The notes under the pieces are model-generated. The model did not search any database. It was not told the DNA's origin and was given only the letters and a program-made list of their open reading frames with translations. Below, one piece after another: positions 2,499-14,975 of a stretch of 15,187 nt of DNA. The stretch is taken from the UHGV virus genome UHGV-1764962; one strand, 5' to 3'. The stretch is from a virus. The first letter of the stretch is position 1. Every line of letters begins with the position of its first letter. Both the position numbers and the translations under genes were made by a program.

Positions 2499-2719
2499 TA
2501 GATTGCTCTAATCTGGAGTCACCTGGCGTTTTCAGTATGGATTTTCTTTGGCGCGGTCTGGCCATTAGGGATCATGTTTGCTGCAACGTTTCTTCTGATG
2601 TGGGTATTCACCCTTCCAGGTGATTTCTATAGAAAAAAAGCCAGACATTGATACAATCGCTGCGGGTGCTTGAGGCTATCTGCTTCAGGCATTACCCGAA
2701 AAGCAGATAGAAGAAAGCC

Positions 2720-2783
2720 CCAGATAACATTACGCGTCCTGCAAGACGCTTAACATTAATCTGAGGCCATATCTATGCTTAGC
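2720..2783 (-). ncRNA. Predicted Sok-like antisense RNA (extent approximate)
   Basis: Minus-strand promoter-like elements: -35 TTGACC (reverse complement of 2814-2819) and -10 TAATCT (reverse complement of 2790-2795), 18-bp spacer. A transcript from here would be antisense to the mok start codon at 2775-2777, as Sok is in hok/sok. A 6-bp stem-loop lies at 2735-2750 but no clear U-tract terminator. Confidence 0.3.
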
Positions 2784-2981
2784 ATACGTAGATTAGCCTC
2801 TTACCGACCAAAAGGTCAAGGAGAAGCAGGCTATGAAGCAGCAAAAAGCGATGTTAATCGCTCTGATCGTCATCTGTTTAACCGTCATAGTGACGGCACT
2901 GGTAACGAGAAAAGACCTCTGCGAGGTACGAATCCGAACCGGCCAGACGGAGGTCACTGTCTTCACAGCCTACGAATCTGA
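2775..2981 (+). CDS. mok-like overlapping reading frame (modulator of killing) of the hok locus
   Basis: 68-codon frame starting 58 nt upstream of hok and overlapping it in another frame, ending 7 nt before the hok stop. An in-frame peptide just upstream of the hok ATG (PLTDQKVKEKQA) resembles the MokC N-terminal extension as I recall it. Confidence 0.35.
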   Translation: MLSIRRLASYRPKGQGEAGYEAAKSDVNRSDRHLFNRHSDGTGNEKRPLRGTNPNRPDGGHCLHSLRI

Positions 2982-2988
2982 AAGGTAA
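2833..2988 (+). CDS. hok: Hok/Gef-family type I toxin (small membrane protein), 51 aa
   Basis: ATG at 2833 with SD aaggaga 8 nt upstream; translation MKQQKAMLIALIVICLTVIVTALVTRKDLCEVRIRTGQTEVTVFTAYESER has a single TM helix and the two conserved Cys, and is near-identical to HokD/RelF and HokC/Gef as I recall them. Too short to appear in the ORF track. Confidence 0.8.
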   Translation: MKQQKAMLIALIVICLTVIVTALVTRKDLCEVRIRTGQTEVTVFTAYESER

Positions 2989-2995
2989 GAGACCT

Positions 2996-3015
2996 GGCGG
3001 GGAGAGATCCCCGCC
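2996..3015 (+). other. GC-rich stem-loop with GAGA tetraloop in the hok 3' region
   Basis: 8-bp stem ggcgggga (2996-3003) / tccccgcc (3008-3015) with loop gaga, 8 nt after the hok stop; consistent with a 3' fold-back or stabilising structure. Confidence 0.4.
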
Positions 3016-3062
3016 ACTCTTCGTGTGTCAGGTATCCTCAATGCACCCTTTCCTCTCCAAAT

Positions 3063-3625: not shown

Positions 3626-4207
3626 TTACTGGAACGCCCGAACAATATCGGAGCTGTTATATATCGAAGAACCGGTCAACTGGAGGTTGACGGTGTTTTT
3701 CAGGAAATGCCCATTGCTGTCCCTGGGCGCATCGAGATCGAAACTTATGTCCTGGATAGCGACATCAATGATGTTGATCCGGCGACCAATGTTTAGCGTC
3801 ACACGCTCCGGGATTCGACCACCAATACTGGCATCTTTAAGTTCCGGGCTAATCATCGCTGACAATGCGGCGATAGCTCCTGAAACCTCCGTGAATGGGT
3901 CAAACAAAGCGATGAAAGTTACTGGCAGCGTGAAAGTCGGCGGTGTTCCCCCTTCCCAAACCATTAAGCTGTTCCAACGGGCAACCGACGTTGTTTCAGT
4001 ACCAACCTGCGCAAAACCACTGAAGGCACCAGCAACAGATCCCATGGACATACCGGTAAACGGCGCTTCCCAATTCTGGGCCATGTTCATTGCCGCTCCC
4101 TGGCTGATATATCCGGTAACCTGGTACTGAGAGTTCGTTAAAGTAACTTTCAGATATGGCGATACACCGTCAGCCTGGCTGTAAACCCCATAAGGTATAG
4201 GTGCCAT
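3626..4207 (-). CDS. Hypothetical phage structural protein, 193 aa (tail tube or baseplate candidate)
   Basis: Tightly packed ORF in the same operon; Gly/Ala/Ser/Thr-rich. Preceded on the minus strand by the hairpin ggccggag/ctccggcc (4219-4236). Confidence 0.4.
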   Translation of the reverse strand: MAPIPYGVYSQADGVSPYLKVTLTNSQYQVTGYISQGAAMNMAQNWEAPFTGMSMGSVAGAFSGFAQVGTETTSVARWNSLMVWEGGTPPTFTLPVTFIALFDPFTEVSGAIAALSAMISPELKDASIGGRIPERVTLNIGRRINIIDVAIQDISFDLDAPRDSNGHFLKNTVNLQLTGSSIYNSSDIVRAFQ

Positions 4208-4242
4208 TCAAGTTAAAGGCCGGAGTTCTCCGGCCTCCTCCT

Positions 4243-5058
4243 TTAGCCGAGGCGCTTACGGCGCAGTTTCATTGACTTTTTGCGGGCCAGTTTTGCCGCG
4301 CCGGTCTGGGCTTTACGACGCGCTTTTTTCAGCGCCGATTTTTGAGCCGCAGTCAGACGTTTTTTACGCAGGCGTTTACGGATGAGTTTGATCTCACCGT
4401 TACGAACAACCTTCTTAAATGCTTCAGTCAGCATTTCATCAGAAGTGCCAGCAACAACAAACGCCGCTTCCAGTTCGTCACGGTCGTCGCTATCTAAACC
4501 AGCGATAGAGGCACCAACATCAGCGGCTGCGTCGTCGTCTTCATCGTCAGCCAGTGCTTCGATCAGGTCATCATCTACACCGCATGCTGCGAGGAAGTCA
4601 GCAACATTTGCCCATGCTTCGTTATAGGCATCGTCCTGTTCTTCTGTAACTTCGGAGTCGTCGTCATCAGAGATACCAGCGATAGCCTGAACGAAACCAT
4701 CAAGGGAGTCGAAAGTCAGATCACCGCTATCAGCCCAGGCGAAAACGGCGTCGGCCGCATCACTCAACGCATTCTGCATAGCACTTCGATTTGCAGCTTC
4801 CAGAATCATCTGGTGCGCCTGTTCGACGGTCCATTCTTTACCGTCTTTCCCTTCCAGGATTTGCTCAGGAGCCGGGGCAGATGGAACGTTATCGTTAGTC
4901 TGTGCCGCCGGTTCCGGATTATTATTAATAACCGGATCTGTTGGCGGTTCGGCGCTTGCTCGGGCAGACTCCATCAGCTGCACAGGATCAGAGTTCAAAG
5001 CGAAACGGGACAGTCCATTCCCCAAAAATGCCCCGGATTGAAAAAAGTTTTTGCTCAT
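4243..5058 (-). CDS. Hypothetical virion-associated protein, 271 aa, strongly acidic body with a highly basic C-terminal tail
   Basis: ATG at 5058 with SD aagggaa, 9 bp after the sheath gene stop. Central region is Asp/Glu-rich (DDDDSEVTEEQDD, ADDEDDDAAAD); the last ~45 residues are Lys/Arg-rich (KRLRKKRLTAAQKSALKKARRKAQTGAAKLARKKSMKLRRKRLG). Confidence 0.5.
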   Translation of the reverse strand: MSKNFFQSGAFLGNGLSRFALNSDPVQLMESARASAEPPTDPVINNNPEPAAQTNDNVPSAPAPEQILEGKDGKEWTVEQAHQMILEAANRSAMQNALSDAADAVFAWADSGDLTFDSLDGFVQAIAGISDDDDSEVTEEQDDAYNEAWANVADFLAACGVDDDLIEALADDEDDDAAADVGASIAGLDSDDRDELEAAFVVAGTSDEMLTEAFKKVVRNGEIKLIRKRLRKKRLTAAQKSALKKARRKAQTGAAKLARKKSMKLRRKRLG

Positions 5059-5067
5059 TGTATTCCC

Positions 5068-6558
5068 TTACTTAATAAGCAGCGGTACGCCCTGGATACG
5101 ACGGGCTACGCCAGTCGGGCAGCAGGCCCAGACTACTTCCCATTTATCGAATTCCGCCTGCGTAACTTTCAGCACATACGGTTCTGTACCGTCAGGGCTA
5201 TGCTTCATCTGGCGGGCTAACTGGACAAAGAAACGGCTGATTGCATTCATCAGGGATGGGACGTGCTGGAAGTGCAGATAGTTATCCTGCGTGCAGCAAG
5301 TTAAAGCATCGTCGATGATCATCTGGCCAGAGGTGCCAACAGATACTTTATTGAGGCGGCCCTTAACCATTGCTTCTTCGTCCGGGGTATCTTCCGGATA
5401 CAGCGGTTGAATTGACGCACGAGCAATGACGGCACGTTCTTCACCAGCCGGTGAGTAATGCCAACCGCCGACATCAGAGTTTTTCTTGACGCCACGAGCT
5501 TTCGCCGCATACGCCGCGCCAGACAGACCGAAGACCACACGGGATTGGGTCCATTTGTCTTTGCAGGAGAACGGGAAGTGATAGACAGCACAGCTTACAT
5601 AATCGGTACCAAGTAAACCGGTATCTTCAACAGCAGAGAGCGCTTCCGTGTACGTCAATGTCGGTTTGACATCAAAGAAGCCATCAATCAGGCGATCAGA
5701 ACAGATATTACCTAACGCGGTGATCGCCGCATTGTCATAGCAACCCAGGCCGAGAACAGCGGTGTACATGTACGGCGCATTGTTCAGCACCTTAACCGCA
5801 CGCAGGTAGGCTTCGGTGGAGATTTTCGACTGATCGCCGTTGGTACCGCCAGTGAACGCCAGTGATTTTTTATTTGTTACTTTCGCGGTCGAAATCAGCT
5901 CTTCATTAACAACCGCGCGCAGATATTTAGAACGGGCTTCCAGAGCCGTAGGCAGATAACACAAGCGGCCCATGTCATCTTTCGCTTCTTCCGCCAAAGA
6001 CACAGTGTGTGTCTCCAGGGTCGTTACCACGCCGAGCGAAGTCGTCTGGGTCAGTTTCAGGAGGAAGCGTTCATTACCTGCGCTGTCCGCTGTTGCCGTT
6101 TCAATGGTTAACTCACGGGTAGGTGAAATACACGGATCACCATCATCAACGTAGATAGCAAAGGCTTCGCCGCTATCAAGTTCAATTTCAGAACCGTATG
6201 GCAACGCACTGTAAGCCGGTTCGCCTGATTCATCGAACATAATAACCGGGAACTTCGCATCATCCGGAACAGCACGGACAACATAACCAGACGTTTGCTG
6301 AATAGCTTCGTATACATGGCGAATTGGTTCGAACTGTGAGCCGGAAGACGGCTTCAGCGGTTCGCCGAGAACATCTTCGTAATTGGACTCAGTAACCGCA
6401 AGAACAGTAAACGGCTTGCCACGCGCAAATACGCCAATACCAGCCCACAAGCTGCTATTTAATGCAACACCTGTAGATAACGTCGCATCGGCATTGATCG
6501 GGCTAACCGCGACGCCGGATGCATTACCTAATGACTGTTGAATTGAATATTGAGACAT
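5068..6558 (-). CDS. Putative contractile tail sheath protein, 496 aa
   Basis: ATG at 6558 with SD agggaaag; sits directly downstream of the head gene, as sheath (gene 22) follows head (gene 23) in the P1 map as I recall it. Assignment by gene order and size, not by search. Confidence 0.5.
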   Translation of the reverse strand: MSQYSIQQSLGNASGVAVSPINADATLSTGVALNSSLWAGIGVFARGKPFTVLAVTESNYEDVLGEPLKPSSGSQFEPIRHVYEAIQQTSGYVVRAVPDDAKFPVIMFDESGEPAYSALPYGSEIELDSGEAFAIYVDDGDPCISPTRELTIETATADSAGNERFLLKLTQTTSLGVVTTLETHTVSLAEEAKDDMGRLCYLPTALEARSKYLRAVVNEELISTAKVTNKKSLAFTGGTNGDQSKISTEAYLRAVKVLNNAPYMYTAVLGLGCYDNAAITALGNICSDRLIDGFFDVKPTLTYTEALSAVEDTGLLGTDYVSCAVYHFPFSCKDKWTQSRVVFGLSGAAYAAKARGVKKNSDVGGWHYSPAGEERAVIARASIQPLYPEDTPDEEAMVKGRLNKVSVGTSGQMIIDDALTCCTQDNYLHFQHVPSLMNAISRFFVQLARQMKHSPDGTEPYVLKVTQAEFDKWEVVWACCPTGVARRIQGVPLLIK

Positions 6559-6573
6559 AACTTTCCCTGTTAT

Positions 6574-6592
6574 GCGCCCCGCACGGGGGCGC
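6574..6592 (-). other. Intercistronic GC stem-loop between head and sheath genes
   Basis: 7-bp all-GC stem gcgcccc (6574-6580) / ggggcgc (6586-6592) with a 5-nt loop; no U-run follows on the minus strand, so more likely a processing or stability element than a terminator. Confidence 0.4.
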
Positions 6593-6618
6593 TATGTTAA
6601 ACGGAGAACTTCCCCTGA

Positions 6619-8325
6619 TTACTCAGAGTCACCGGCATCAATCGTGTCGCCGCTTATAAAGTTAAGCCCGCCTTTTTTGGCCATTGTCAGCGTTACACGA
6701 GTGAAGTAATCAGCGCCGTTGCGTGGGTGCATATCGTTGATAGCCGAACCCCACAGCGTGGTACGGTTGACCAGCGCCGGAGTGGTCGGATGCTGGAACG
6801 GGATAGCCGGGACAGCATCACCAGTCACGAAGCCTGCTTTACCCGGATTTTCATCACGGACGTAGCACAGCACATCCATCGAGCTGAACTGAATGTTCTC
6901 TGTCGTTAAATTCTTACAAATACCAGCAGGTACTTCGTACACTTTCACGTTACCGAACAGGGTACCGATGTAGTGAACATACGGAGTCTGGATATAGTCT
7001 TCGGCTGGCTGGAAGAAATCCTTCGGCAACTGTTTGAAGAAAGATGCTGCATCAGCACCAGCAAACATCCCCATCGCACCAGAAGATTTAACGCGCTCAA
7101 TAATGTCGCGATATACAGTCTGGAATTTGCCACGAATGATGGTTGCCCATACATCAAAGGACTGGTTAACCGGCAAAGCGATGTCAAAGGAGTCGGTCGC
7201 AAGAGTACGCCAGATCATAATGCGAAGACGCAGCATATCCTGTTCATGAGACAGGTATTCCTTCAGGGTGCGGAACTGTAGGGAACCCAGGTCCAGACCA
7301 AATTCACGCTGTGCTTCATACGCCGCCTGTACCGTATGCTCAGCCGCGATAACGAACTGGCTTGGGAACAGGGTGTATTTCTTCATTTCGTGGTTGATCA
7401 GCGGGATCAGCTCAGGAGCGGCTTCAATATTGATTTCCGTCTCAATTGCGATCTCAGTGCCTTTATCCGGCGCTTTGGAGAACGACAGGGCAATCTGACC
7501 AATGTTGTAGTTCAGAGAGCAGGTAACAGTGATTTGCTCACCAGCAGCATTAGTAAACGAGTGAAGTAGGCTGCCGGAACCGTTATCAACAACAGACTTA
7601 ATACGGTTAACGTAGATGTTAGTGCGACCTTTTCGGATTGGTACATTCTGGCCTTCGAAGTCTTCCATCTTGAAGGTTGCGGTTTTGCTGGTGCCATCGG
7701 AGCTTGCCACCAGCACATAGCGGCGACGTAACTGGCTGTACACACCGACGGATTGCATGTCCAGAACATCACCAGCAGCATAAGAACCAAAAGAGGAACC
7801 TGCCACGTTAAAGACTTCATAGATGTCGGACTGGTCACGCGTAACCGGAATGAAGGTACACGCATCAGCGGTAGCTGCCCCCAACTGAACAGGCAGGATC
7901 ATCGCGAGGAATAAAGGCAGACGCATAACACCGTCAGAAACGCTCATCATCTCTGCTGCGACGGATTCCAGCATCGCTTTATTAGTGGCATCCATGCTAT
8001 TGCGGGTGGACTCAATCAGGCAGTTTTCCAGCGTCTGGTGGCAGGAGGCCAGAATTTCCGGACGCGGCATAGATTTATGTGCTGCGGCGTAGTCAGCCAG
8101 TGCACTTGCCCACGCTGTAGCGATTTGAGCGGTGGCATTATCAGAGATACCCGCAAAAACCGGGTCTTTACGTGCAGCTTCAAGGATAGATGCGGCACGC
8201 GCGGCATCATCTTTAATGAATTGGTTATCAGTACCGAACTGCGCAGTGCTTGCCCAGCCAAGCACAGCTTTAGAGCGTTTTGCGATATCTGCAATACGAT
8301 TCTGGTATTCGCGTAAGTTACTCAA
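6619..8325 (-). CDS. Putative major head (capsid) protein precursor with N-terminal scaffold-like domain, about 569 aa
   Basis: Large late-operon ORF; the N-terminal ~120 aa are helical and Ala-rich, consistent with a cleaved delta/scaffold domain. The ORF track start (8346) is a TTG with no SD; the in-frame TTG at 8323-8325 has SD aggaag with a 6-nt spacer, so 8325 is the more likely start. Assigned by size and position next to the partition locus. Confidence 0.5.
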   Translation of the reverse strand: MSNLREYQNRIADIAKRSKAVLGWASTAQFGTDNQFIKDDAARAASILEAARKDPVFAGISDNATAQIATAWASALADYAAAHKSMPRPEILASCHQTLENCLIESTRNSMDATNKAMLESVAAEMMSVSDGVMRLPLFLAMILPVQLGAATADACTFIPVTRDQSDIYEVFNVAGSSFGSYAAGDVLDMQSVGVYSQLRRRYVLVASSDGTSKTATFKMEDFEGQNVPIRKGRTNIYVNRIKSVVDNGSGSLLHSFTNAAGEQITVTCSLNYNIGQIALSFSKAPDKGTEIAIETEINIEAAPELIPLINHEMKKYTLFPSQFVIAAEHTVQAAYEAQREFGLDLGSLQFRTLKEYLSHEQDMLRLRIMIWRTLATDSFDIALPVNQSFDVWATIIRGKFQTVYRDIIERVKSSGAMGMFAGADAASFFKQLPKDFFQPAEDYIQTPYVHYIGTLFGNVKVYEVPAGICKNLTTENIQFSSMDVLCYVRDENPGKAGFVTGDAVPAIPFQHPTTPALVNRTTLWGSAINDMHPRNGADYFTRVTLTMAKKGGLNFISGDTIDAGDSE

Positions 8326-8376
8326 TTTACTCTTCCTTAAACACAAGGCACTTGTGTGAATCCCTTTTCGGAAGAG

Positions 8377-8404
8377 ATTTTATTGAAAGTCACTTGTTGA
8401 CTTT
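8377..8404 (-). promoter_or_regulatory. Candidate late promoter for the head/sheath operon (-10 TAAAAT plus upstream inverted repeat)
   Basis: On the minus strand: inverted repeat AAAGTCA-N5-TGACTTT (8386-8404) followed 3 nt later by TAAAAT (reverse complement of 8377-8382). No -35 hexamer, an architecture resembling activator-dependent phage late promoters. Confidence 0.3.
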
Positions 8405-8418
8405 CTCGTGACAAGAAA

Positions 8419-8443
8419 TTTTTTTTTTTCGGGAGGAGGGGGG
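8419..8443. repeat. Homopolymeric tracts: T11 followed by a G-rich run (gggaggagggggg)
   Basis: Eleven consecutive T at 8419-8429, then a G-rich run through 8443 including six consecutive G at 8438-8443; between parS and the head-gene promoter region. Confidence 0.9.
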
Positions 8444-8460
8444 AAAAGGTAAAATCCAAG

Positions 8461-8543
8461 GTGAAATCGTGGCGATTTCACCTTGAAATTTTAGAAGGAT
8501 TTACTTTAAAAACAGTAATTTAATGGTGAAATTTGAATGGCGA
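8461..8543 (-). other. parS: parS partition site (P1-type centromere with box A heptamers, box B hexamers and a central AT-rich IHF-type region)
   Basis: Read on the minus strand: TCGCCA (box B) - ATTTCAC (box A) - AT-rich core - ATTTCAA - GTGAAAT - TCGCCA - ATTTCAC. Plus-strand positions: gtgaaat 8461-8467, tggcga 8470-8475, atttcac 8475-8481, tggcga 8538-8543. Lies 5 bp downstream of the parB stop, as in P1. Confidence 0.75.
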
Positions 8544-8547
8544 AAGT

Positions 8548-9549
8548 TTAAGGCTTCGGCTTTTTATCGAGGCTCTTTCTAAGGATATGCCCAATCATCC
8601 TGTCGAGTTCTTCCTGTAACTCTTTTGAGAGTCGATTAAACTCATAAGAAAATGCACGGCCTTTCACGCGCTTCCTTGCAAAGCGATCCTTGTCCTCAAA
8701 TTTCCATAATTCAGTAACTACGGACTTATCTTTAGAACCTTTATCCGTGAGTAGTGAGGCTTCCTTTGTTATCAAGCGCAGGATTTTATTTTTAACTTCA
8801 TCTTCGGCCATTTCTTCAATGGATAAGATGTCGTTTATTTCCGGGGATATGTTTTGAATAAGCTGATCAAACTCTAAATTCTTGTTCCCCATTTCGTCGC
8901 CAACAGCACAAAGCGTTTTGTAGTCCGAAAAGGTTAATTCCGACTGCACAGGGAAAAGGGCGACTAATTCTTCCGGAGCACTCGCTGCCTGGAGAGCACG
9001 CGTGACCTTCGCCTGAGACAGCCCTTCTTTGGCTGCAATATCCTTCTGACTCATCCCATCATTTTTCATTCGCATCAAACGCAGACCTATTTCTCGAATG
9101 CTGTGCTGCAATGCTGTCTGAACGTCTTTCGCTAAATTTTGCGCTTCCTGAACGCTGATCTCCTGGTCCGTGACTAAAACCCGCAACCCTACGTTCTCTA
9201 AGATGGCAGAAGCTCGACGCCGGGAACCATCCAAAATTTCAATTTTCCCTGTAGCCCGTCTAACACCTATTGCAGGGTAAAATTGCTGATGCTTAATAGT
9301 GCTTCGGATACTTTTTAATGATTTTGGCGTAAGAGATGCCTGGTCACGCCCGTTGTTATGCTGATCAACAAAGGTATCGCTTTCTACCTGGTTCGGAGGT
9401 ATTACCTCTTCAATAAATATGGCCTGGCGACCAGTTGATAACTTGAATACCTGCTCGACTCGATCGCCAGAGGCTGAAGAACTATCAAATCCGCTTAATA
9501 TTGAAGGATTAAGGGTTCGCCCAATTGTTGGTCTGTTTTTCTTTGACAT
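8548..9549 (-). CDS. parB: Partition protein ParB (type Ia centromere-binding protein), 333 aa
   Basis: 333-aa ORF directly downstream of parA and upstream of parS; length equals my recollection of P1 ParB. Confidence 0.9.
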   Translation of the reverse strand: MSKKNRPTIGRTLNPSILSGFDSSSASGDRVEQVFKLSTGRQAIFIEEVIPPNQVESDTFVDQHNNGRDQASLTPKSLKSIRSTIKHQQFYPAIGVRRATGKIEILDGSRRRASAILENVGLRVLVTDQEISVQEAQNLAKDVQTALQHSIREIGLRLMRMKNDGMSQKDIAAKEGLSQAKVTRALQAASAPEELVALFPVQSELTFSDYKTLCAVGDEMGNKNLEFDQLIQNISPEINDILSIEEMAEDEVKNKILRLITKEASLLTDKGSKDKSVVTELWKFEDKDRFARKRVKGRAFSYEFNRLSKELQEELDRMIGHILRKSLDKKPKP

Positions 9550-9565
9550 GGGGGTTTCTTACTCC

Positions 9566-10762
9566 TCAGTTAGATCTGATAAATTCAATACGGTCGAAAA
9601 CTGCTTTAGCAAAATCTTCCGCGGCAATTCGCGCGTTCTTCAATGCATCAGCACTACCAACATACGTTGCCGGGTTAGCTGAAATAACAGTGTCAAAAGA
9701 CTCGCCGCAGCGTTCAAAACCGTCAAGGCGAGGGAGGACGACATCAAGCATATCCCCACCGAACACTTCTTTAGCCAGGCTATGGCAATACTTATGGTCT
9801 GCCTTGTTACTCAACTTGGACATAAAACCAATGTTAGTCGCAAGCTGGCACTCGCAGCCTTCATCCGAAATGAGTTTCACCAACTCAGGAAGGCGGGCAA
9901 CGTATTTAAGCGATGAGTGGAAATCAACCGTTGCAGGCGGCAAAGGTGTAAACAGTATATTGGCCGAGGCCAAAGCATTTTTCAGGAAGGCGTCAAGGTG
10001 AGGACCACTATCAACGAGGATAAAGTCATAATCGCTCTTCAGCTTATCAATCACATTTTCTTTCAGGACAGCATGGATGTTCTGACCCGGTAGATGCTCA
10101 TTGCACAGCTCTCTCCAATCGGATGCAATAAAGGCATCGTCAATCGACGCAGGCATAACGTCAACCCCAGGTACAACAGAAGGAACAATAAACTCCTCTA
10201 ACAGCTCTTCACGGCTTACATTCTGCAACATAGCCTGTGCAGATGTTGCGTTTACGATACCAATAGAGTGTTTATGGCTTAAAAACATCGTTGCTGAAGA
10301 TTGCGGATCAAGGTCAATAACCAGAATCCTTAAATCTTCCATCAGAAGATGAGGGTGAGCACGCATTGCATGCGCCAGAGAAACCGTCGATACAGTTTTT
10401 GACACACCGCCTTTAAGATTGGAGATGAAAATCACATACGCTTCGCTGTAGCGATCCCGGTATTTTGGCACTCCGCGATGTTCATATATGTCAATGATGT
10501 TCTGAATTGACATCGCATATTTCATTGAAGAGCCAGCAGGGCGTTTATCGAAAACATAACCCTTTTCTTCCATTTCACTCACGGCATAGTCAACGTTCGC
10601 TCGAGTCAGTAGAGGCAATTTTGCCAGTGCCGCTTTCGCATAGACCTGGTAAAACTCGTTCGCGTGTAGCTCATCCTTTTGCAACTGTACTTGTTCAGTC
10701 AGAACATTGAGCATTCTGTTTGCTCTTTGAGCAACCTTGTGAAGCTGGCTGGAATCACTCAT
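9566..10762 (-). CDS. parA: Partition ATPase ParA (type Ia, with N-terminal regulatory/HTH extension), 398 aa
   Basis: Deviant Walker A motif NLKGGVSKT; 398 aa as for P1 ParA; SD aaggatgg before the ATG; 16-bp gap to parB. Confidence 0.9.
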   Translation of the reverse strand: MSDSSQLHKVAQRANRMLNVLTEQVQLQKDELHANEFYQVYAKAALAKLPLLTRANVDYAVSEMEEKGYVFDKRPAGSSMKYAMSIQNIIDIYEHRGVPKYRDRYSEAYVIFISNLKGGVSKTVSTVSLAHAMRAHPHLLMEDLRILVIDLDPQSSATMFLSHKHSIGIVNATSAQAMLQNVSREELLEEFIVPSVVPGVDVMPASIDDAFIASDWRELCNEHLPGQNIHAVLKENVIDKLKSDYDFILVDSGPHLDAFLKNALASANILFTPLPPATVDFHSSLKYVARLPELVKLISDEGCECQLATNIGFMSKLSNKADHKYCHSLAKEVFGGDMLDVVLPRLDGFERCGESFDTVISANPATYVGSADALKNARIAAEDFAKAVFDRIEFIRSN

Positions 10763-10779
10763 CGAAAGCCATCCTTTAT

Positions 10780-10870
10780 GCTGTATTTTTGAATTTAATT
10801 AAAAATGCTGCATAAAATAATAATGTATGCACAGATGCTTGTACATAGCATTCTCTGCATGTTTGGTTCA
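10780..10870 (-). promoter_or_regulatory. parA promoter/operator region (AT-rich with imperfect palindromes)
   Basis: AT-rich intergenic region directly upstream of parA containing the palindrome atgc-t-gcat (10805-10813) and a recurring tgcat motif. In P1 ParA autoregulates from an inverted-repeat operator here (established knowledge); exact site not resolved. Confidence 0.35.
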
Positions 10871-10902
10871 TTTTGCACGATTGAGAGTTACAAGGAGGGC
10901 AC

Positions 10903-10923
10903 AAAAAAGCCCCGTTCAGGGGC
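10903..10923 (-). terminator. Rho-independent terminator after the T5orf172-like gene
   Basis: Stem gcccc (10909-10913) / ggggc (10919-10923), loop gttca; on the minus strand it is followed by a six-U run (plus-strand aaaaaa 10903-10908), 8 nt after the CDS stop. Confidence 0.6.
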
Positions 10924-10930
10924 ATCAGTG

Positions 10931-11740
10931 TTATTTGCTAAGAGCAGCGAATAATCGTTCGAAATCGATAGTATCTATAGCACGCGTAAGCGCCGGAAGT
11001 TCAGCCTCAAAGTACCCGTGTCGATCGTAAAAGAAGGGACCGAAGAGCGAGGCATGTTGGATTCTACTTCGCCCCAGCCCGGACACACAGTTAAGCCCAT
11101 TACCGGCTAAAAGGCTAAAAAACTTCTCTGGATTATCGTGGTAAAGCTGGGAATCAATGGTGGCGGTTAACTCTTCCATAGGGAAGCACACCCGCCTTGT
11201 CTCCCAGGGATATTTAGTCCGAAGCATAAACATTGCTTTCAGCAATTCACATTGAGCGCGGATCGCGTCCGGTTCATAGCCAGATATGGAGACATAAGCC
11301 ACGTCCCTCATTCCTGCGTCATCTTTGAAAGTCACGATAGAAGTAACATCCAGCTCTTTTTCGAAAGAGCGGGCAGCATCTACTGGACGCTGAAGTAAAT
11401 CATTCGACTTAATGCGCTCGAGAATCCCTCCCCACATCTCATTTAGATATTCGATATGAGCCAAAACCTTATCAAGACACTCTCGTGTAAACCATTCAGT
11501 ATGCCCGCCACCAGCGCTTTTCTCCCACGGCGCATTCCAGGGGAAAAAGGTTGCGTGTAAAGCCCGCTCAAGATTAACTATTGCCAAACGCGTACCACGA
11601 TAGACCCGTGAAAGCGCAAAATCGGGACTCACTTGTAGCCCTTTAAACCGTGCCAATGGACCACATGAAATGCCGATTTTAAAAGTATCTCCGTTCTCCG
11701 GCACCAGAACGTAGAGGTAGTGTTGTTTCTCTTCTTGCAT
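10931..11740 (-). CDS. Hypothetical protein with N-terminal T5orf172/GIY-YIG-like putative nuclease domain, 269 aa (UpfA-position gene)
   Basis: N-terminal ~100 aa carry the T5orf172 pattern: YLYVL ... FKIGIS ... LERALHATF ... GGGHTEWF ... LDKVLAHIEYL. Located between the incA-like iterons and parA. Weak SD. Confidence 0.55.
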   Translation of the reverse strand: MQEEKQHYLYVLVPENGDTFKIGISCGPLARFKGLQVSPDFALSRVYRGTRLAIVNLERALHATFFPWNAPWEKSAGGGHTEWFTRECLDKVLAHIEYLNEMWGGILERIKSNDLLQRPVDAARSFEKELDVTSIVTFKDDAGMRDVAYVSISGYEPDAIRAQCELLKAMFMLRTKYPWETRRVCFPMEELTATIDSQLYHDNPEKFFSLLAGNGLNCVSGLGRSRIQHASLFGPFFYDRHGYFEAELPALTRAIDTIDFERLFAALSK

Positions 11741-11773
11741 ATCAATACCACTGCTTGATGAGAACCGCGCAAA

Positions 11774-12030
11774 TGTTGACTATGCGCGAAAGTTAATGTG
11801 AATAGTTGACTATGCGCGATGTGACTACAGTCAAAAGTTGACTGTAGTCGATTTAACTCCACCAAAGATCGACTATGTAAGATATTGTCGGGAGAAACGT
11901 TGACTATACGCGATGAAATGACCCTAAAAGCCATCTCAATAGCGACTTGCAGAATATTGACGCCAGCAAAAATCCACCAGCGTCAACGAATGTCGCCTAT
12001 AGTCAACTTCTCGCTATCGCATATAGTCAA
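11774..12030. repeat. Downstream iteron array (incA-like copy-control locus), mixed orientation
   Basis: Iteron-like 15-16-mers: gttgactatgcgcga at 11774-11788 and 11804-11818, gttgactgtagtcga at 11836-11850, gttgactatacgcga at 11898-11912 (all inverse orientation relative to the origin iterons); forward copies tcgcctatagtcaac at 11992-12006 and atcgcatatagtcaat at 12015-12030. A perfect 10-bp inverted pair gactacagtc / gactgtagtc lies at 11822-11848. Confidence 0.75.
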
Positions 12031-12032
12031 TA

Positions 12033-12917
12033 TTATGGATTGCGCTTATGGATCTGGAAGCCGATTTTCCTGCCGTTTTTTATCTCTGAAAATTTAAGAT
12101 ATTCAATAGCTTCCAAATCTTTCATGGCTTTTCTGATAACGCTATTTTGCACGCTAACGGATGATTTGAGATTAAGCCTTGCTCTAAGGCGCTCAATGCT
12201 GACAGGTGCCGGGTTGGCGGGTAGAGCCTCAAAGAATGTATACAGTACCTTGGCCGTCTCTTTGCGCCCGAGCTTATCCAGCATCTTCAGCTTCAGGATT
12301 CGCTTATAGTCAACATAGTAAAGTTCAGATAGCTGTTTCTGCGGCTGGATCTCGATAACATCAAGCTCGGTATTCAGGCTGCTATATGCCAACAAGTTGA
12401 CGTTAATGTTATTGAGATGACCTTTTGCCGCCGGGAAGCGGAATTTGACAACTGTCTGCTGAATGCGTGTCAGAGAGTCATCAATACTTTTACGGAACGC
12501 CTTTGAAAGGCGCTTACGTGGATAGCCGCATCGATCGGCAAACTCGGAGAATGGCAGGGTGATTATGCCGTCATCATCAGGTGCGTAGTCAAACAACGCG
12601 GAGGTTATGCCCACCCACACCTTAAAATCAGTATCCATATCCAGGCGTGGGCCATGAATTTCAATTCCCTCATAGCCTTCCTGCTCAACAATTTTAAGGC
12701 TTGATAGTTCTTCGGTTGCGTTCGTTGTGTTTGTAGTAACTGACGATCCGCGACGTAGTGCCACATTGGTAGATTTTAAGGTTGGCACAAACACACCTAA
12801 GCGCAACAAAGCGATAGGTTGTATAGTGCTGTTGTTATTGGGCTTCAGGCTGTGGATTTCTCCTGTATTTCCTGCAACTTCTTCAACGCTAAGGAAGCCT
12901 TTACTTTCTTCCGGCAT
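12033..12917 (-). CDS. repA: Iteron-binding plasmid replication initiator RepA, 294 aa
   Basis: ORF flanked by iteron arrays on both sides; ATG at 12917 with SD ggaga; upstream array overlaps the promoter position, as in autoregulated RepA genes. Confidence 0.8.
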   Translation of the reverse strand: MPEESKGFLSVEEVAGNTGEIHSLKPNNNSTIQPIALLRLGVFVPTLKSTNVALRRGSSVTTNTTNATEELSSLKIVEQEGYEGIEIHGPRLDMDTDFKVWVGITSALFDYAPDDDGIITLPFSEFADRCGYPRKRLSKAFRKSIDDSLTRIQQTVVKFRFPAAKGHLNNINVNLLAYSSLNTELDVIEIQPQKQLSELYYVDYKRILKLKMLDKLGRKETAKVLYTFFEALPANPAPVSIERLRARLNLKSSVSVQNSVIRKAMKDLEAIEYLKFSEIKNGRKIGFQIHKRNP

Positions 12918-12997
12918 CGTGGTTTCTCCATGTGTGGCGCGGCCTGGCGTTAATTTAGATGACTGTTATCAACAGCTGTGAATATTCAGGCTCTAAA

Positions 12998-13098
12998 ATC
13001 GCGTACAGTCAACGTTTCTGTCGCGTATAGTCAACAATAAATCGCGTGCAGTCAACATAAAATCGCACACAGTCAACATAAAATCGCGTATAGTCAAT
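12998..13098 (-). repeat. Origin iterons (incC-like): five direct repeats with about 21-bp periodicity
   Basis: atcgcgtacagtcaac (12998-13013), tcgcgtatagtcaac (13021-13035), atcgcgtgcagtcaac (13041-13056), atcgcacacagtcaac (13062-13077), atcgcgtatagtcaat (13083-13098); centre-to-centre spacing 21-22 bp. Confidence 0.85.
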
Positions 13099-13101
13099 GT
13101 T

Positions 13102-13209
13102 GATCCCGTTTCAGGCCATGAACGGCGCGGCTTACAGCGATCCGGGATCTTCTTTGGATCTTCCTAGGTTCTCTTTGGGATCTGTTTATTGGATCTATGC
13201 TGTGGATAA
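13102..13209. other. Plasmid replication origin core: GATC-rich AT region plus consensus DnaA box
   Basis: Six GATC sites (13102, 13139, 13146, 13157, 13179, 13192), four of them inside repeated GGATCT motifs; perfect DnaA box TGTGGATAA (reverse complement TTATCCACA) at 13201-13209. Organisation matches the DnaA box / GATC heptamer / five-iteron layout known for P1 oriR. Confidence 0.6.
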
Positions 13210-13218
13210 GTTGAATAA

Positions 13219-13241
13219 ACCGGCCAACATAGCCGGTTGGA
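13219..13241 (-). terminator. Terminator-like hairpin downstream of the 130-aa gene
   Basis: Stem aaccggc (13219-13225) / gccggtt (13233-13239), loop caacata; on the minus strand followed by tattcaactt (weak U-run). Confidence 0.35.
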
Positions 13242-13251
13242 AGGAAGGGTA

Positions 13252-13644
13252 TTATTCTACGCTTTCGATAAGAAGACCATGTTCATAACATTTAAGCTCA
13301 TCGCCTTCGTACAGGAATTGGTATCCAATACCACCATATTCAGGCACATTAGGGAATAACTCATCACTTACCGAAGAACAAATCACACCAATGCAGCGAT
13401 CAACGCCTTCTCGTTCTTCAGTGCTGAAAAAATCCTCTTCGGTAAGAACATGAGTACATTGCTCATCAGCATAGGTCGGAAATACATGCTCGATGCAATC
13501 CGGGTGTTTTAAACCAAGCTGATCGGCAAGCTCGAAAGCATGACGGTATTGTTCAGATCCTGGCTTGCCAACAGTGATGTGCTCAATTTTGTAGATTGAA
13601 GTCGCTTTGTTGATAGTTTGCTTTACTGTTACTTTATCAGACAT
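13252..13644 (-). CDS. Hypothetical acidic Cys/His-rich small protein, 130 aa
   Basis: ATG at 13644 with SD aaggga; Asp/Glu-rich with several Cys and His; no recognisable family. Confidence 0.5.
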   Translation of the reverse strand: MSDKVTVKQTINKATSIYKIEHITVGKPGSEQYRHAFELADQLGLKHPDCIEHVFPTYADEQCTHVLTEEDFFSTEEREGVDRCIGVICSSVSDELFPNVPEYGGIGYQFLYEGDELKCYEHGLLIESVE

Positions 13645-13655
13645 AAAAATCCCTT

Positions 13656-13988
13656 TTAGTTACCGCTGATAGCGCGGTTGTAATCATTAACGTTGCGATT
13701 CTTCCTGTTAATCCCCATCAGCATCGTTTCTGTATCAAGGATATAGGCTGGCAGATCATCAAAATATTCACTGCTAAACTCTGGCATCCTGCACATAAAT
13801 GCACTTTTGGGGGCAGGGTGGTTAACCTTTGTCGGCGTCGGCGTTAAATTCGCTGATCGACTGCCGGAGCAACCGCTGAGTGTCAGCAGGAATGCGCTGG
13901 CGAACATTACCCGCCGCAACCAGTTGTTTCTGAACTTCAGCTTTTCGTTCCATTTGCCTGTCAGCATATTTGGCTTGTTCTGATTCAT
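13656..13988 (-). CDS. Outer-membrane lipoprotein, o-spanin (Rz1)-like, 110 aa precursor
   Basis: Signal peptide with lipobox LTLSGC (Cys 40); ATG at 13988 with SD aggaag; the gene starts inside the 3' end of the upstream i-spanin-like gene in another frame and extends beyond it. Confidence 0.5.
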   Translation of the reverse strand: MNQNKPNMLTGKWNEKLKFRNNWLRRVMFASAFLLTLSGCSGSRSANLTPTPTKVNHPAPKSAFMCRMPEFSSEYFDDLPAYILDTETMLMGINRKNRNVNDYNRAISGN

Positions 13989-14244
13989 TTTTCACTTCCT
14001 GGCTGTGAAAATGTTGCTCTGCTTTGTTCATCGTCTCAATGGTCTGGTTAAGATCCATTATTGACTTATCACGTTCCTTAACAGCCTGATCAAGACTGCC
14101 AATTTTCTCCATAGCTTGCTTTAGCTGATGACGTTCCCATGCAAACCCAGCACCAACAAGTGCGCAAATCAGAACAAGAACACCAGTAGCAGCAAGTTTC
14201 TCCTTCAAAGACAAAGCTGTTTTTAACGTAGAAAAGAATGACAT
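13822..14244 (-). CDS. Inner-membrane spanin (Rz)-like protein, about 140 aa
   Basis: Probable start is the ATG at 14242-14244 (MSFFSTLK...) with strong SD aggagg and 5-nt spacer; the ORF-track start at 14271 is TTG. N-terminal TM segment LAATGVLVLICALVGAGFAW followed by a charged, coiled-coil-prone periplasmic domain. Confidence 0.5.
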   Translation of the reverse strand: MSFFSTLKTALSLKEKLAATGVLVLICALVGAGFAWERHQLKQAMEKIGSLDQAVKERDKSIMDLNQTIETMNKAEQHFHSQEVKNESEQAKYADRQMERKAEVQKQLVAAGNVRQRIPADTQRLLRQSISEFNADADKG

Positions 14245-14283
14245 GTCTTCCTCCTGAAGAAAAATTATCAATGAAGTCCTTTG

Positions 14284-14946
14284 TTACTGTGCCGCTTTGT
14301 TTAATTCATCAAGAACAGAATCAGGAACCAAAGCGGCAACTGCGCTGGCTGTGCTGACCTTATTTGCTGATGCTTCCGCAAGCGCGGTACCGATAGCATG
14401 GTTATAAGCAGTTATGGCTACGTTGGCGCTTTCATTCGCTCGTTCATACTGCTGTTGTAACGCAGTTGTGGGCGCTGTTGTCTGGTTGAAAACAACCCCA
14501 AACTGTTCAGTTGCTACTTTCAGAGATTCAATTTGCTCTTCTGTTAGTGCTGGTGGGGGAGTGGCAGTGCCGCCGCCTGAACCAGAGCCTGACGAGCTTC
14601 CTGAGCCAGTGTTAAGGGTCTGGTTAATCTCCCCCATAGCAGCGACTAAACTTGATGTATTAAGCGCGTTAACAGCGTCCTCAAGCGATTTAGTAATATT
14701 CACATCACCAATGGCAATAGAGATCGGCAGTTCTGAAACTTCTCGCTCATTAGCACGGCAGTAAACATCCCAACCAATATCGAGTTGAAGCAGCATTGAC
14801 AGATCTGCATAACCAGCCAACAGGTCCGCGTGCTTAGTTGCCAGTTCTCCAATGTTCGTTAAGCCGGTTGTGGTTGTTCTTATCGTTGAAACATAGCTGG
14901 TAATAGTGTCGGGATAGACAATTGTATCCAGAATTAATCCGGTCAA
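14284..14946 (-). CDS. Hypothetical protein, at least 220 aa, probably the C-terminal portion of a gene interrupted by the IS5-family element
   Basis: Minus-strand frame stays open from 14284 through the IS boundary at 14976 to a stop inside the IS (15019-15021); the ORF-track start is a TTG without SD. Contains a Thr-rich segment and a Gly/Ser linker (TGSGSSSGSGSGGGTATPPP). Confidence 0.4.
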   Translation of the reverse strand: MTGLILDTIVYPDTITSYVSTIRTTTTGLTNIGELATKHADLLAGYADLSMLLQLDIGWDVYCRANEREVSELPISIAIGDVNITKSLEDAVNALNTSSLVAAMGEINQTLNTGSGSSSGSGSGGGTATPPPALTEEQIESLKVATEQFGVVFNQTTAPTTALQQQYERANESANVAITAYNHAIGTALAEASANKVSTASAVAALVPDSVLDELNKAAQ

Positions 14947-14975
14947 TTCTTCTGCAAGCAGTTTTGCTGTGTTAG

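What the first reader, a model, noticed from the sequence alone, without database searches (positions are those of the whole stretch)
11774..13098. Iteron replicon with a mixed-orientation control array; iteron sequence does not match the classical P1 19-mer as I recall it
Five same-orientation iterons (core tcgcgtatagtcaac, ~21-bp period) lie upstream of repA. At least six more lie downstream, four inverted and two direct, including a perfect 10-bp inverted pair (11822-11848) that could form a cruciform or a handcuffing site. The layout mirrors P1 incC-repA-incA, but my recollection of the P1 RepA iteron (GATGTGTGCTGGAGGGAAA) is unrelated to this repeat. That raises the possibility of a P1-type par cassette paired with a different replicon.
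Basis: partly seen in the sequence, partly recalled or inferred. Interest (0 to 1): 0.5.

Follow-up and report, generated by a model that had tools for sequence, protein, structure and literature searches.

The report
Known p0111 replicon in P1-like phage-plasmid
This is the plasmid-replication module of a P1-like phage-plasmid that keeps P1's partition genes but carries the already catalogued "p0111" replication gene and its own repeated binding sites instead of P1's, so it is real and neatly organised but ordinary.

Summary
A 15-mer, TCGCGTATAGTCAAC, occurs 12 times at up to 3 mismatches against 0.3 expected, and all 12 copies lie in 11775-13098. Five direct copies at a 21-bp period sit upstream of repA (minus strand, 12033-12917). 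Two same-orientation and four inverted copies sit downstream. The inverted pair is 12+12 nt (11823-11834/11838-11849), not 10.

The interpretation also holds. RepA is only 42% identical to P1/P7 RepA, whereas ParA (397/398), ParB (332/333) and parS are P1's. About 2.3-2.4 kb (10865 to roughly 13215-13300) replaces P1's incA-repA-incC. It carries its own DnaA boxes and GATC cluster, plus a T5orf172 (GIY-YIG-like) gene.

This is not new. repA is 98.98% identical to repA of pO111_2, the record a published survey cites for the "p0111" type. The module is 97-99.9% identical in RCS47, SJ46, JL22 and about 400 plasmid records. Papers already describe p0111 repA replacing IncY repA in P1-like phage-plasmids. 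Only the iteron-level anatomy seems undescribed. The mechanism (iteron-bound initiation, downstream array as copy-number brake) is inferred from P1.

The parts
13201..13209 (-). Consensus DnaA box (TTATCCACA on the - strand) at the outer end of the origin
   Evidence: Exact match in the scan. It aligns with the P1/P7 DnaA boxes and is conserved in the 85% relative L004.
13139..13195 (.). Cluster of five GATC (Dam) sites with an 11-bp period; by analogy with P1 oriR, the probable opening and methylation-sensing part of the origin
   Evidence: GATC at 13139, 13146, 13157, 13179 and 13192, against 4.5 per kb in the window overall. TRF gives period 11 over 13145-13196. It aligns with the five annotated Dam sites of P1/P7. 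It is visibly better conserved with L004 (roughly 95% by eye, not computed) than with P1, which is 70-75% identical here.
12999..13098 (+). Five direct origin iterons (incC equivalent) at 12999-13013, 13021-13035, 13042-13056, 13063-13077 and 13084-13098, with 21-22 bp period. Each reads GTTGACTATACGCGA on the repA strand and contains TTGACT
   Evidence: The same five-copy array is in L004.
12966..12974 (+). DnaA-box-like site (TTATCAACA, 1 mismatch) between the iterons and the repA start
   Evidence: The aligned position in L004 is a perfect TGTGGATAA. P1/P7 have a box-like TGTGGATAG at the equivalent place.
12033..12917 (-). repA' (294 aa), the p0111-type iteron-binding initiator
   Evidence: Pfam Rep3_C 27.3 bits (cut-off 21.1) and Rep3_N 22.0 bits (cut-off 22.4). 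42% identity to P1/P7 RepA, E = 9e-71. 98.98% nucleotide identity over 885/885 to repA of pO111_2, NC_013370. GGAGA lies 8 nt before the ATG (read).
12300..12314 (+). Iteron copy inside the repA' coding sequence (TCGCTTATAGTCAAC, 1 mismatch), same orientation as the origin iterons
   Evidence: Retained in L004 at 4604-4618.
11993..12031 (+). Two repA-proximal control iterons in origin orientation (11993-12007, 12017-12031). The second ends 1 nt from the repA stop codon
   Evidence: Same pair in L004 at 4887 and 4910. Equivalent to P1 incA copies 7-9.
11969..11990 (+). Degenerate third proximal element (AAAATCCACCAGCGTCAACGAA)
   Evidence: 10.9 bits, which is background level, but conserved in L004 as TTGACGCTGGCGGATTT. 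Membership in the array is uncertain.
11775..11913 (-). Distal control iterons in inverted orientation at 11775-11789, 11805-11819, 11837-11851 (3 mismatches) and 11899-11913. A degenerate relic scored over 11865-11886 fills the 62-bp gap between 11837 and 11899, which is twice the 30-32 bp spacing
   Evidence: L004 has four inverted-orientation repeats (starts about 5005, 5036, 5066, 5098) at about 31-bp spacing; the 15-mer scan at up to 3 mismatches recovered only two of them. P1 incA copies 1-6 are inverted at 31 bp.
11823..11849 (.). Perfect 12+12 nt inverted repeat with a 3-nt gap, formed by iteron 11837-11851 and an inverted copy of its outer 12 nt
   Evidence: Identical in RCS47 and pO111_2. 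Absent from L004.
10931..11740 (-). T5orf172 (GIY-YIG-like) ORF, 269 aa, part of the module that replaces P1 incA-repA-incC
   Evidence: Pfam T5orf172 E = 7.4e-6. phrog_2876, unknown function, and a weak endonuclease PHROG. Present in 401 PLSDB records, against about 398 holding repA'. Split into two ORFs in pO111_2.
10909..10923 (-). Terminator-like hairpin plus T-run after the T5orf172 ORF, separating it from the par promoter
10865..13215 (.). Extent of the non-P1 replicon module. The left edge is sharp at 10864/10865. The right edge is a gradient across 13124-13300
   Evidence: blastn against P1 AF234172. Sliding identity to P1 is 0.62-0.75 over 13101-13200, 0.88-0.92 over 13201-13280, and about 1.0 from about 13320.
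8464..10845 (-). P1-type partition cassette: Ppar (10817-10845), parA (9566-10762), parB (8548-9549) and parS (about 8464-8546)
   Evidence: 98.5% nucleotide identity to P1. ParA 397/398 and ParB 332/333. parS identical to P1 across the central inverted repeat and distinct from P7. Promoter-like site at 10845-10817.

Best explanation
The region is the plasmid-maintenance replicon of a P1-like phage-plasmid of the 'p0111' replicon type. It belongs to the same architectural family as P1 oriR-repA-incA but has its own initiator specificity.

Shown by sequence and comparison:
- A P1-RepA homologue (42% identity).
- An origin made of an outer DnaA box, five GATC sites, five direct 21-bp-spaced iterons and an inner DnaA-like box.
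- A downstream array starting 1 nt after the repA stop codon, with two proximal copies in origin orientation and four to five distal copies inverted at about 31 bp.
- A linked T5orf172 gene and terminator.
- Flanks made of P1's own par operon on one side and upfA on the other.

Inferred by analogy with P1 (P1 RepA controls initiation and copy number by binding the two iteron groups upstream and downstream of repA, and the iterons set replication incompatibility: PMC10999674 citing Chattoraj & Schneider 1997; DnaA, Dam, autorepression and handcuffing are from my knowledge of P1):
- RepA' monomers bind the five origin iterons and, with host DnaA and Dam-methylated GATC repeats, open the origin.
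- RepA' bound to those iterons also represses its own promoter, which probably lies in the array (each iteron carries TTGACT).
- The downstream array holds copy number low by titrating RepA' and by RepA'-mediated pairing (handcuffing) with origin iterons.
- Because the iteron differs from P1's 19-mer, replication incompatibility should be distinct from IncY. Partition incompatibility (incB) with P1 should remain, because parS and ParB are P1's.
For: - Repeat statistics and map.
- Initiator homology: where the nearest relatives are all named plasmid replication initiators.
- P1/P7 annotated anatomy for comparison.
- Replacement boundaries against P1.
- Membership of the p0111 type: 98.98% over the whole gene to pO111_2, NC_013370. 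I equate this with AP010962 from memory; AP010962 is the record PMC11165635 cites for p0111 repB.
- Identity of 97.5-99.3% to JL22, SJ46 and RCS47. PMC9603915 types JL22 as p0111 and says 'repA' (p0111) and an unknown gene replace repA (IncY)'. PMC5241659 reports the same 42% identity to P1 RepA.
- Conservation of the anatomy in an 85%-identical replicon outside P1 synteny (L004): DnaA boxes, 5 GATC, 5 + 2 + 4 iterons and the intragenic copy, with a slightly shifted iteron, TTGACTATGTGCGA.
- The control array is invariant among the window, RCS47 and pO111_2 apart from one non-iteron base.
Against: - No experiment on this replicon type was found. Only one paper in the library holds both 'iteron' and 'p0111'. 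Binding, autorepression, handcuffing and the incompatibility phenotype are all analogy.
- No good sigma-70 match for PrepA'. The best are 8/12: TCAACA-17-TATGTT (13103-13075), and TTGACT-17-GACTAT (13055-27), which lies inside the iteron array.
- The downstream array is shorter than P1's (6 good copies against 9).
- The array also lies immediately upstream of the T5orf172 ORF, so some copies could serve that gene's regulation instead.
- Pfam Rep3_N is just under its cut-off, and no solved structure matches by sequence.
Confidence: 0.85

Rival explanations
1. It is the ordinary P1/IncY replicon and the reader simply misremembered the iteron.
For: The surrounding backbone is P1: 97.5% identity over 79% of the window. 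The layout is P1-like.
Against: The P1 19-mer is exactly as recalled in the P1 and P7 records and absent from the window. RepA is 42% identical. blastn finds no similarity to P1 over 10865-13123. Per PMC10999674, RepAs shown to be incompatible with P1 (IncY) are about 72-73% identical to P1 RepA and use near-identical iterons.
Confidence: 0.01
2. It is an IncFIB (RepFIB) replicon captured from an F-type plasmid, as the 'RepFIB replication protein A' label in several records suggests.
For: Several deposited records use that label. RepA' does fall in the broad enterobacterial 'RepB family/RepFIB' group.
Against: Proteins named RepFIB or found on large Klebsiella and Salmonella plasmids are only 44-49% identical. 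That is no closer than P1 RepA at 42%. The nearest distinct relatives are an 85% E. coli protein and a 53% Proteus protein. DNA similarity to other plasmid replicons is limited to short stretches (5-12% of the query) at 68-81%. The label is a family-level name, not a type assignment. I did not compare directly with the P307 or F RepFIB reference sequences.
Confidence: 0.03
3. The downstream array is mainly a RepA'-controlled operator and promoter region for the T5orf172 gene, with the 12+12 palindrome as a RepA' dimer operator, rather than a copy-number (incA-like) locus.
For: The ORF starts 35 nt beyond the last iteron, on the same strand as repA. The palindrome is perfect and conserved in RCS47 and pO111_2. 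In other Rep3-type plasmids, inverted half-iterons bind Rep dimers as operators (my knowledge of pPS10, R6K and pSC101).
Against: L004 keeps the 2 + 4 array with about 31-bp phasing, but it has no palindrome and no T5orf172 gene downstream; its next gene is convergent. The array therefore predates the gene and is independent of it. P1 incA has the same orientation pattern with no gene to regulate. Only 8/12 promoter matches were found in the array. The two roles are not mutually exclusive.
Confidence: 0.1
4. The origin is a chimera: foreign iterons and repA' fused to P1's own DnaA-box and GATC half of oriR. This was my own interim reading.
For: blastn similarity to P1 and P7 resumes at 13124, right after the last iteron.
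Against: Identity to P1 in 13124-13200 is only 70-75% and reaches about 100% only from about 13320. The non-P1 relative L004 aligns far better across the same DnaA/GATC core. The core therefore belongs to the incoming replicon and is a family-wide conserved feature. The crossover lies further out, around 13215-13300.
Confidence: 0.05

Closest known systems
'p0111' replicon type of P1-like phage-plasmids (PMC11165635 cites AP010962.1 for p0111 repB; I equate this with pO111_2 / NC_013370 from memory; also phages RCS47, SJ46, JL22, phi456)
   Same: repA is 98.98% identical over its full length to that of pO111_2. The whole 1.6-kb region is 97.5-99.9% identical in RCS47, SJ46, JL22, phi456 and about 400 plasmid records. 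It has the same linked T5orf172 gene and the same position between P1 parA and upfA.
   Different: Nothing of substance. There are a few point differences, mostly in repA and in the 12950-12985 spacer. In pO111_2 the T5orf172 gene is split.
Bacteriophage P1/P7 plasmid replicon oriR(incC)-repA-incA (IncY)
   Same: Homologous initiator (42%). Five direct iterons at 21-bp period upstream. Five GATC sites and DnaA boxes at both ends of the origin. A downstream array that starts at the stop codon, with proximal copies in origin orientation and distal copies inverted at about 31 bp. Same genomic slot next to parAB.
   Different: The iteron sequence differs (GTTGACTATACGCGA against GATGTGTGCTGGAGGGAAA), agreeing at 9 of 18 positions in the best ungapped register that I aligned by hand, which is not significant. 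The array has 6 good downstream copies (2+4) instead of 9 (3+6). There is an intragenic iteron that P1 lacks, a perfect 12+12 palindrome, one rather than two outer consensus DnaA boxes, and an extra T5orf172 gene between the array and parA.
Unnamed 85%-identical replicon on a 91-kb E. coli contig (L004, GCA_013513435.1)
   Same: Same complete anatomy, including the intragenic iteron and a strongly conserved DnaA/GATC core.
   Different: 75-77% DNA identity. The iteron is shifted to TTGACTATGTGCGA. It has no palindrome and no T5orf172 gene, and its flanking genes are not P1-like. The rest of the 8.9-kb locus matches nothing in the phage collection.
RepFIB-labelled and 'RepB family' initiators of large enterobacterial plasmids
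   Same: Same protein family, with reported identity of 44-49% over 92-100% of the query. The Proteus relative (53%) also has direct iterons upstream, mixed-orientation arrays downstream and an intragenic iteron.
   Different: Different iteron sequences and array designs; for example, eleven 43-bp tandem units in the Proteus locus. There is no type-level identity.

Membership tests
p0111 replicon type (in-silico plasmid typing) | Near-identity of the rep gene to the reference in AP010962 / pO111_2. The usual PlasmidFinder practice of at least 95% identity over most of the gene is from my knowledge. | tested here: met
   98.98% over 885/885 nt to repA of NC_013370, pO111_2. PMC11165635 names AP010962.1 as the record used for p0111 repB. 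The AP010962 = NC_013370 equivalence is from my memory of the O111:H- 11128 records; the AP010962 accession was not in the collections.
p0111 replicon type (in-silico plasmid typing) | Occurs in P1-like phage-plasmids in place of the IncY repA | tested here: met
   The flanks are P1 at 94.5-98.5%. The same context is seen in RCS47 and pO111_2. Literature: PMC9603915.
P1/IncY replicon | RepA closely related to P1 RepA. Known IncY members are about 72-73% identical or more (PMC10999674). | tested here: not met
   42% identity.
P1/IncY replicon | 19-bp iterons of the GATGTGTGCTGGAGGGAAA type | tested here: not met
   0 matches at up to 3 mismatches in the window.
P1-family iteron replicon architecture (works like oriR-repA-incA) | Initiator homologous to P1 RepA and of the Rep3 winged-helix class | tested here: met
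   BLASTP E = 9e-71 to P1 RepA. Rep3_C is above its cut-off and Rep3_N is 0.4 bits below.
P1-family iteron replicon architecture (works like oriR-repA-incA) | Five direct iterons at about two helical turns, next to a GATC cluster and flanked by DnaA boxes | tested here: met
   Alignment to P1/P7 oriR.
P1-family iteron replicon architecture (works like oriR-repA-incA) | Second iteron array downstream of repA, proximal copies in origin orientation and distal copies inverted | tested here: met
   Window 2+4(5). P1 3+6. L004 2+4.
P1-family iteron replicon architecture (works like oriR-repA-incA) | repA promoter embedded in the origin iterons (autorepression) | tested here: inconclusive
   Only 8/12 consensus matches. 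One of them (TTGACT-17-GACTAT, 13055-13027) lies in the array.
P1-family iteron replicon architecture (works like oriR-repA-incA) | Copy-number control by titration and handcuffing; incompatibility exerted by cloned arrays | not testable with these tools
   Needs copy-number, incompatibility and DNA-pairing experiments.
P1 partition system (incB) | P1-type ParA, ParB and parS with P1-specific boxes | tested here: met
   ParA 397/398 and ParB 332/333. parS is identical to P1 across the central inverted repeat and unlike P7.
IncFIB (RepFIB) replicon | Type-level identity to a RepFIB initiator | tested here: not met
   Source-labelled RepFIB proteins are 44-47% identical. I made no direct comparison with the P307 or F reference.

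The most novel reading that the evidence does not exclude
The free-standing T5orf172 (GIY-YIG-like) gene at the parA-side edge of the module might be a homing-type nuclease. On this reading it would cut IncY-type P1 relatives near the parA/incA junction and drive co-conversion of the whole replicon. That could explain why the gene is almost perfectly linked to repA' (401 against about 398 plasmid records) and why IncY and p0111 types switch repeatedly on the phage-plasmid tree (about 17 changes reported in PMC11165635).

A lesser reading is that the iteron inside repA' is a working control site. It is conserved in the 85% relative, and an analogous intragenic iteron occurs in the Proteus relative.
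Probability: 0.08. Interest if true: 0.55.

Novelty: already known. Interest (0 to 1): 0.15.

Why it matters
The practical value is in annotation and typing.

- **Two maintenance modules of different ancestry.** The element combines a p0111-type replicon with a P1-type partition system. Its predicted behaviour towards a resident P1 is therefore mixed: compatible for replication, incompatible for partition. This qualifies the published remark that IncY and p0111 phage-plasmids 'can theoretically be compatible'.
- **Cloning and testing.** The iteron map given here (five origin copies, 2+4 control copies, one intragenic copy, DnaA boxes, GATC cluster) appears not to be written down in the searchable literature. 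It defines the minimal fragment to clone for a p0111 mini-replicon or for incompatibility probes.
- **No conceptual change.** None of this alters how iteron plasmids are understood to work.

Tried and rejected
- **Interim 'chimeric origin' idea** (foreign iterons joined to P1's DnaA/GATC half): rejected after the L004 comparison and the sliding identity to P1.
- **NCBIfam scan** of RepA', the T5orf172 protein and UpfA: no family.
- **Sequence search of solved structures** with RepA': nothing below E = 0.39. No structure was predicted, because 42% identity to P1 RepA already fixes the family.
- **Rfam scan of the whole window:** no RNA family in the replicon, only sok at 2664-2838. There is no sign of antisense-RNA control.
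- **Strict promoter scan:** no repA promoter. A relaxed scan gave only 8/12 candidates.
- **Accession look-ups:** AP010962 was not in the collections. A first guess, NC_013366, turned out to be the F-type ehx plasmid pO111_3. NC_013370, pO111_2, was the record needed.
- **Origin of the L004 element:** the search found no phage match outside the replicon.
- **Co-residence check:** I did not look for genomes carrying both IncY and p0111 P1-like plasmids, because the listing limits make the intersection unreliable.
Full report

Yes. The 15-mer TCGCGTATAGTCAAC, allowing 3 mismatches, occurs 12 times in the 15,187-base window. Shuffled sequence gives 0.32, and none of 200 shuffles reaches 12. All 12 copies fall within 11775-13098. 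A weight matrix built from the five upstream copies separates these 12 sites (18.1-30.9 bits) from everything else in the window (11.7 bits or less).

- **Upstream of repA.** The only long ORF here is 12033-12917 on the minus strand, 294 aa. Five copies sit on the plus strand at 12999, 13021, 13042, 13063 and 13084. Tandem Repeats Finder reports period 21 and 4.9 copies.
- **Downstream of repA.** Four copies lie on the minus strand (11775, 11805, 11837, 11899) and two on the plus strand (11993, 12017).
- **The inverted pair.** As a DNA hairpin it folds at -11.6 kcal/mol, z = -6.2.
A twelfth good copy lies inside repA at 12300-12314.
- **Degenerate elements.** Two weak elements, 11865-11886 (minus) and 11969-11990 (plus), score at background level. 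They sit where the array's phasing predicts a copy, and the second is conserved in a relative.

**2. What is it?**

*The initiator.* The ORF hits Pfam Rep3_C above threshold and Rep3_N 0.4 bits below. It is 42% identical to RepA of both P1 and P7, E = 9e-71.

That 19-mer has no match in the window at up to 3 mismatches.

*Similarity to P1 (AF234172) by blastn*:

| Window region | Identity to P1 | Content |
|---|---|---|
| 5187-10864 | 98.5% | genes 22 and 23, parS, parB, parA, par promoter |
| 10865-13123 | none detectable | the replicon module |
| 13124-14975 | 94.5% | rest of origin, upfA and beyond |

*Partition genes.* ParA is 397/398 and ParB 332/333 identical to P1. Against P7 they are 58% and 43%. 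parS carries the P1-specific boxes. So a P1 partition cassette is indeed paired with a different replicon.

**3. Extent of the foreign module**

The left edge is sharp, at 10864/10865 just upstream of Ppar. The right edge is a gradient. Identity to P1 is 0.62-0.75 across 13101-13200, 0.88-0.92 across 13201-13280, and about 1.0 from about 13320.

I first read this as a chimeric origin and then rejected that idea. A RepA 85% identical to this one (P0003) lies on a 91-kb E. coli contig (L004). The neighbours of that contig are not P1-like, and nothing else in the locus matches the phage collection. Yet its DnaA-box and GATC core aligns far better with window 13130-13210 than P1's does. The core therefore belongs to the incoming replicon and is a conserved feature of the whole family. 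The crossover with the P1 backbone lies around 13215-13300.

Reading along the repA strand, the module contains:
- an outer consensus DnaA box (13201-13209);
- five GATC sites in 57 bp with an 11-bp period (13139-13195);
- five direct iterons;
- an inner DnaA-like box, TTATCAACA (12966-12974), which is a perfect box in L004;
- repA';
- the downstream array;
- a 269-aa T5orf172 (GIY-YIG-like) ORF (10931-11740);
- a terminator-like hairpin (10923-10909).

**4. Comparison of layouts**

In P1 and P7 the five incC iterons and the three repA-proximal incA iterons share one orientation. The six distal incA iterons are inverted and spaced 31 bp apart. The most proximal copy touches the repA stop codon.

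The window has the same pattern with fewer copies. Two proximal copies are in origin orientation, the first ending 1 nt from the stop codon. Four good distal copies are inverted, with start-to-start spacings of 30, 32 and 62 bp. The degenerate relic scored over 11865-11886 lies in that 62-bp gap. L004 shows 5 + 2 + 4 with the same phasing and the same intragenic copy, but a slightly different iteron, TTGACTATGTGCGA.

A 53% relative from Proteus mirabilis (L006) uses yet another iteron, TTGTTGATGCTAGTCGAT. It has direct copies upstream, a 43-bp tandem array plus inverted copies downstream, and a perfect iteron inside its own repA. Initiator and iteron thus change together across the family while the design persists.

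Among close relatives (RCS47, pO111_2) the control array is invariant apart from one non-iteron base. Differences cluster in repA and in the spacer 12950-12985.

**5. How it most likely works**

The architecture above is shown. The mechanism is inferred from P1. There, RepA controls initiation and copy number by binding two groups of iterons upstream and downstream of repA, and the iterons determine replication incompatibility (PMC10999674, citing Chattoraj & Schneider 1997). DnaA, Dam, autorepression and handcuffing in P1 are from my own knowledge.

I therefore propose the following:
- RepA' monomers load on the five origin iterons. With DnaA at the flanking boxes and Dam-methylated GATC repeats, they open the origin.
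- Iteron-bound RepA' also shuts off its own promoter.
- The downstream array restrains copy number by titration and by RepA'-bridged pairing with origin iterons.

The promoter step is the weakest. Each iteron contains TTGACT, but the best promoter-like combinations reach only 8/12: TCAACA-17-TATGTT (13103-13075), and TTGACT-17-GACTAT (13055-13027) inside the array.

Predicted phenotype: replication incompatibility distinct from IncY, but partition incompatibility with P1 retained, because parS and ParB are P1's. [quoted passage not shown]

**6. Comparison with what is known**

This is the 'p0111' replicon type.
- repA is 98.98% identical over all 885 nt to repA of pO111_2, NC_013370. I equate that record with AP010962 from memory. 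AP010962.1 is the record PMC11165635 used for 'p0111 repB'.
- The 1.6-kb region is 99.3% identical in phage RCS47 and 97.5-97.9% in phi456, SJ46 and JL22.
- It is 95% identical or more in about 400 PLSDB plasmids, mostly 90-100 kb and non-mobilizable, from Escherichia and Salmonella.
- PMC11165635 counts 132 p0111 against 94 IncY in Salmonella, with about 17 switches on the tree.
- PMC5241659 already reported the 42% identity to P1 RepA.

The 'RepFIB replication protein A' label in some records is only a family-level name. RepFIB-labelled proteins are 44-47% identical, no closer than P1 RepA.

The one thing I could not find in the library is an iteron-level description. Only one paper holds both 'iteron' and 'p0111', and the phage-plasmid papers I read discuss the gene only.

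**7. Verdict**

Interest is low, at 0.15. The residual novelty is descriptive: the iteron map, the intragenic iteron, the palindrome, and the linked nuclease-like gene.

The most novel reading not excluded is that the T5orf172 gene drives replicon replacement as a homing nuclease. It is almost perfectly linked to repA' (401 against about 398 records) and sits at the module edge. Against that reading, it is split in pO111_2 and absent from the L004 replicon, and nothing here tests activity.

Noticed in passing
window 12300-12314 (+), inside repA'; L004 4604-4618; L006 4425-4442: A near-consensus iteron lies inside the initiator's own coding sequence. It is kept in the 85% relative even though the flanking codons differ synonymously. 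The 53% Proteus relative has a perfect iteron inside its repA at a different position and in inverted orientation. P1 repA has none at up to 5 of 19 mismatches.
   Followed up: partly
window 10931-11740 (-), terminator 10909-10923: A T5orf172/GIY-YIG-like ORF (phrog_2876, unknown function) travels with the p0111 repA: 401 plasmid records hold it, against about 398 holding repA'. It is split into two ORFs in pO111_2 and absent beside the related L004 replicon. It could be a free-standing homing-type nuclease; this is untested.
   Followed up: partly
L002 (RCS47) 3867-5063; window 9566-10762: PMC5241659 states that RCS47 ParA/ParB are identical to P7 and distant from P1. In the deposited RCS47 sequence ParA is 397/398 identical to P1, and the equivalent window ParA is only 58% identical to P7. 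The published statement appears inverted.
   Followed up: yes
window 2513-3062 (sok at 2664-2838, +): A hok/sok-type toxin-antitoxin locus (Rfam sok, 114.9 bits) occupies the slot where P1 carries rlfA-rlfB-pmgF. This is one of the known variable regions of P1-like elements.
   Followed up: partly
L004 (GCA_013513435.1, contig DABKFZ010000018.1, 91 kb): An E. coli contig carries an 85%-identical version of this replicon in a non-P1 context. One neighbouring gene has a weak T4-baseplate hit, and the rest of the 8.9-kb locus has no match in the phage collection. It may be an uncharacterised phage-plasmid.
   Followed up: partly
window 11957-11990: An imperfect hairpin, TTGACGCCAGC...CCAGCGTCAA, overlaps a degenerate iteron-like element. 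Its repA-proximal half is conserved in L004. Its role is unknown: possibly a third proximal iteron relic or a repA 3' structure.
   Followed up: no
window 12950-12985: The spacer between the last origin iteron and the repA' start, which includes the DnaA-like box, is the most variable stretch between the window and pO111_2. It holds 9 of their 31 differences in 36 bp, while the control array is invariant.
   Followed up: no
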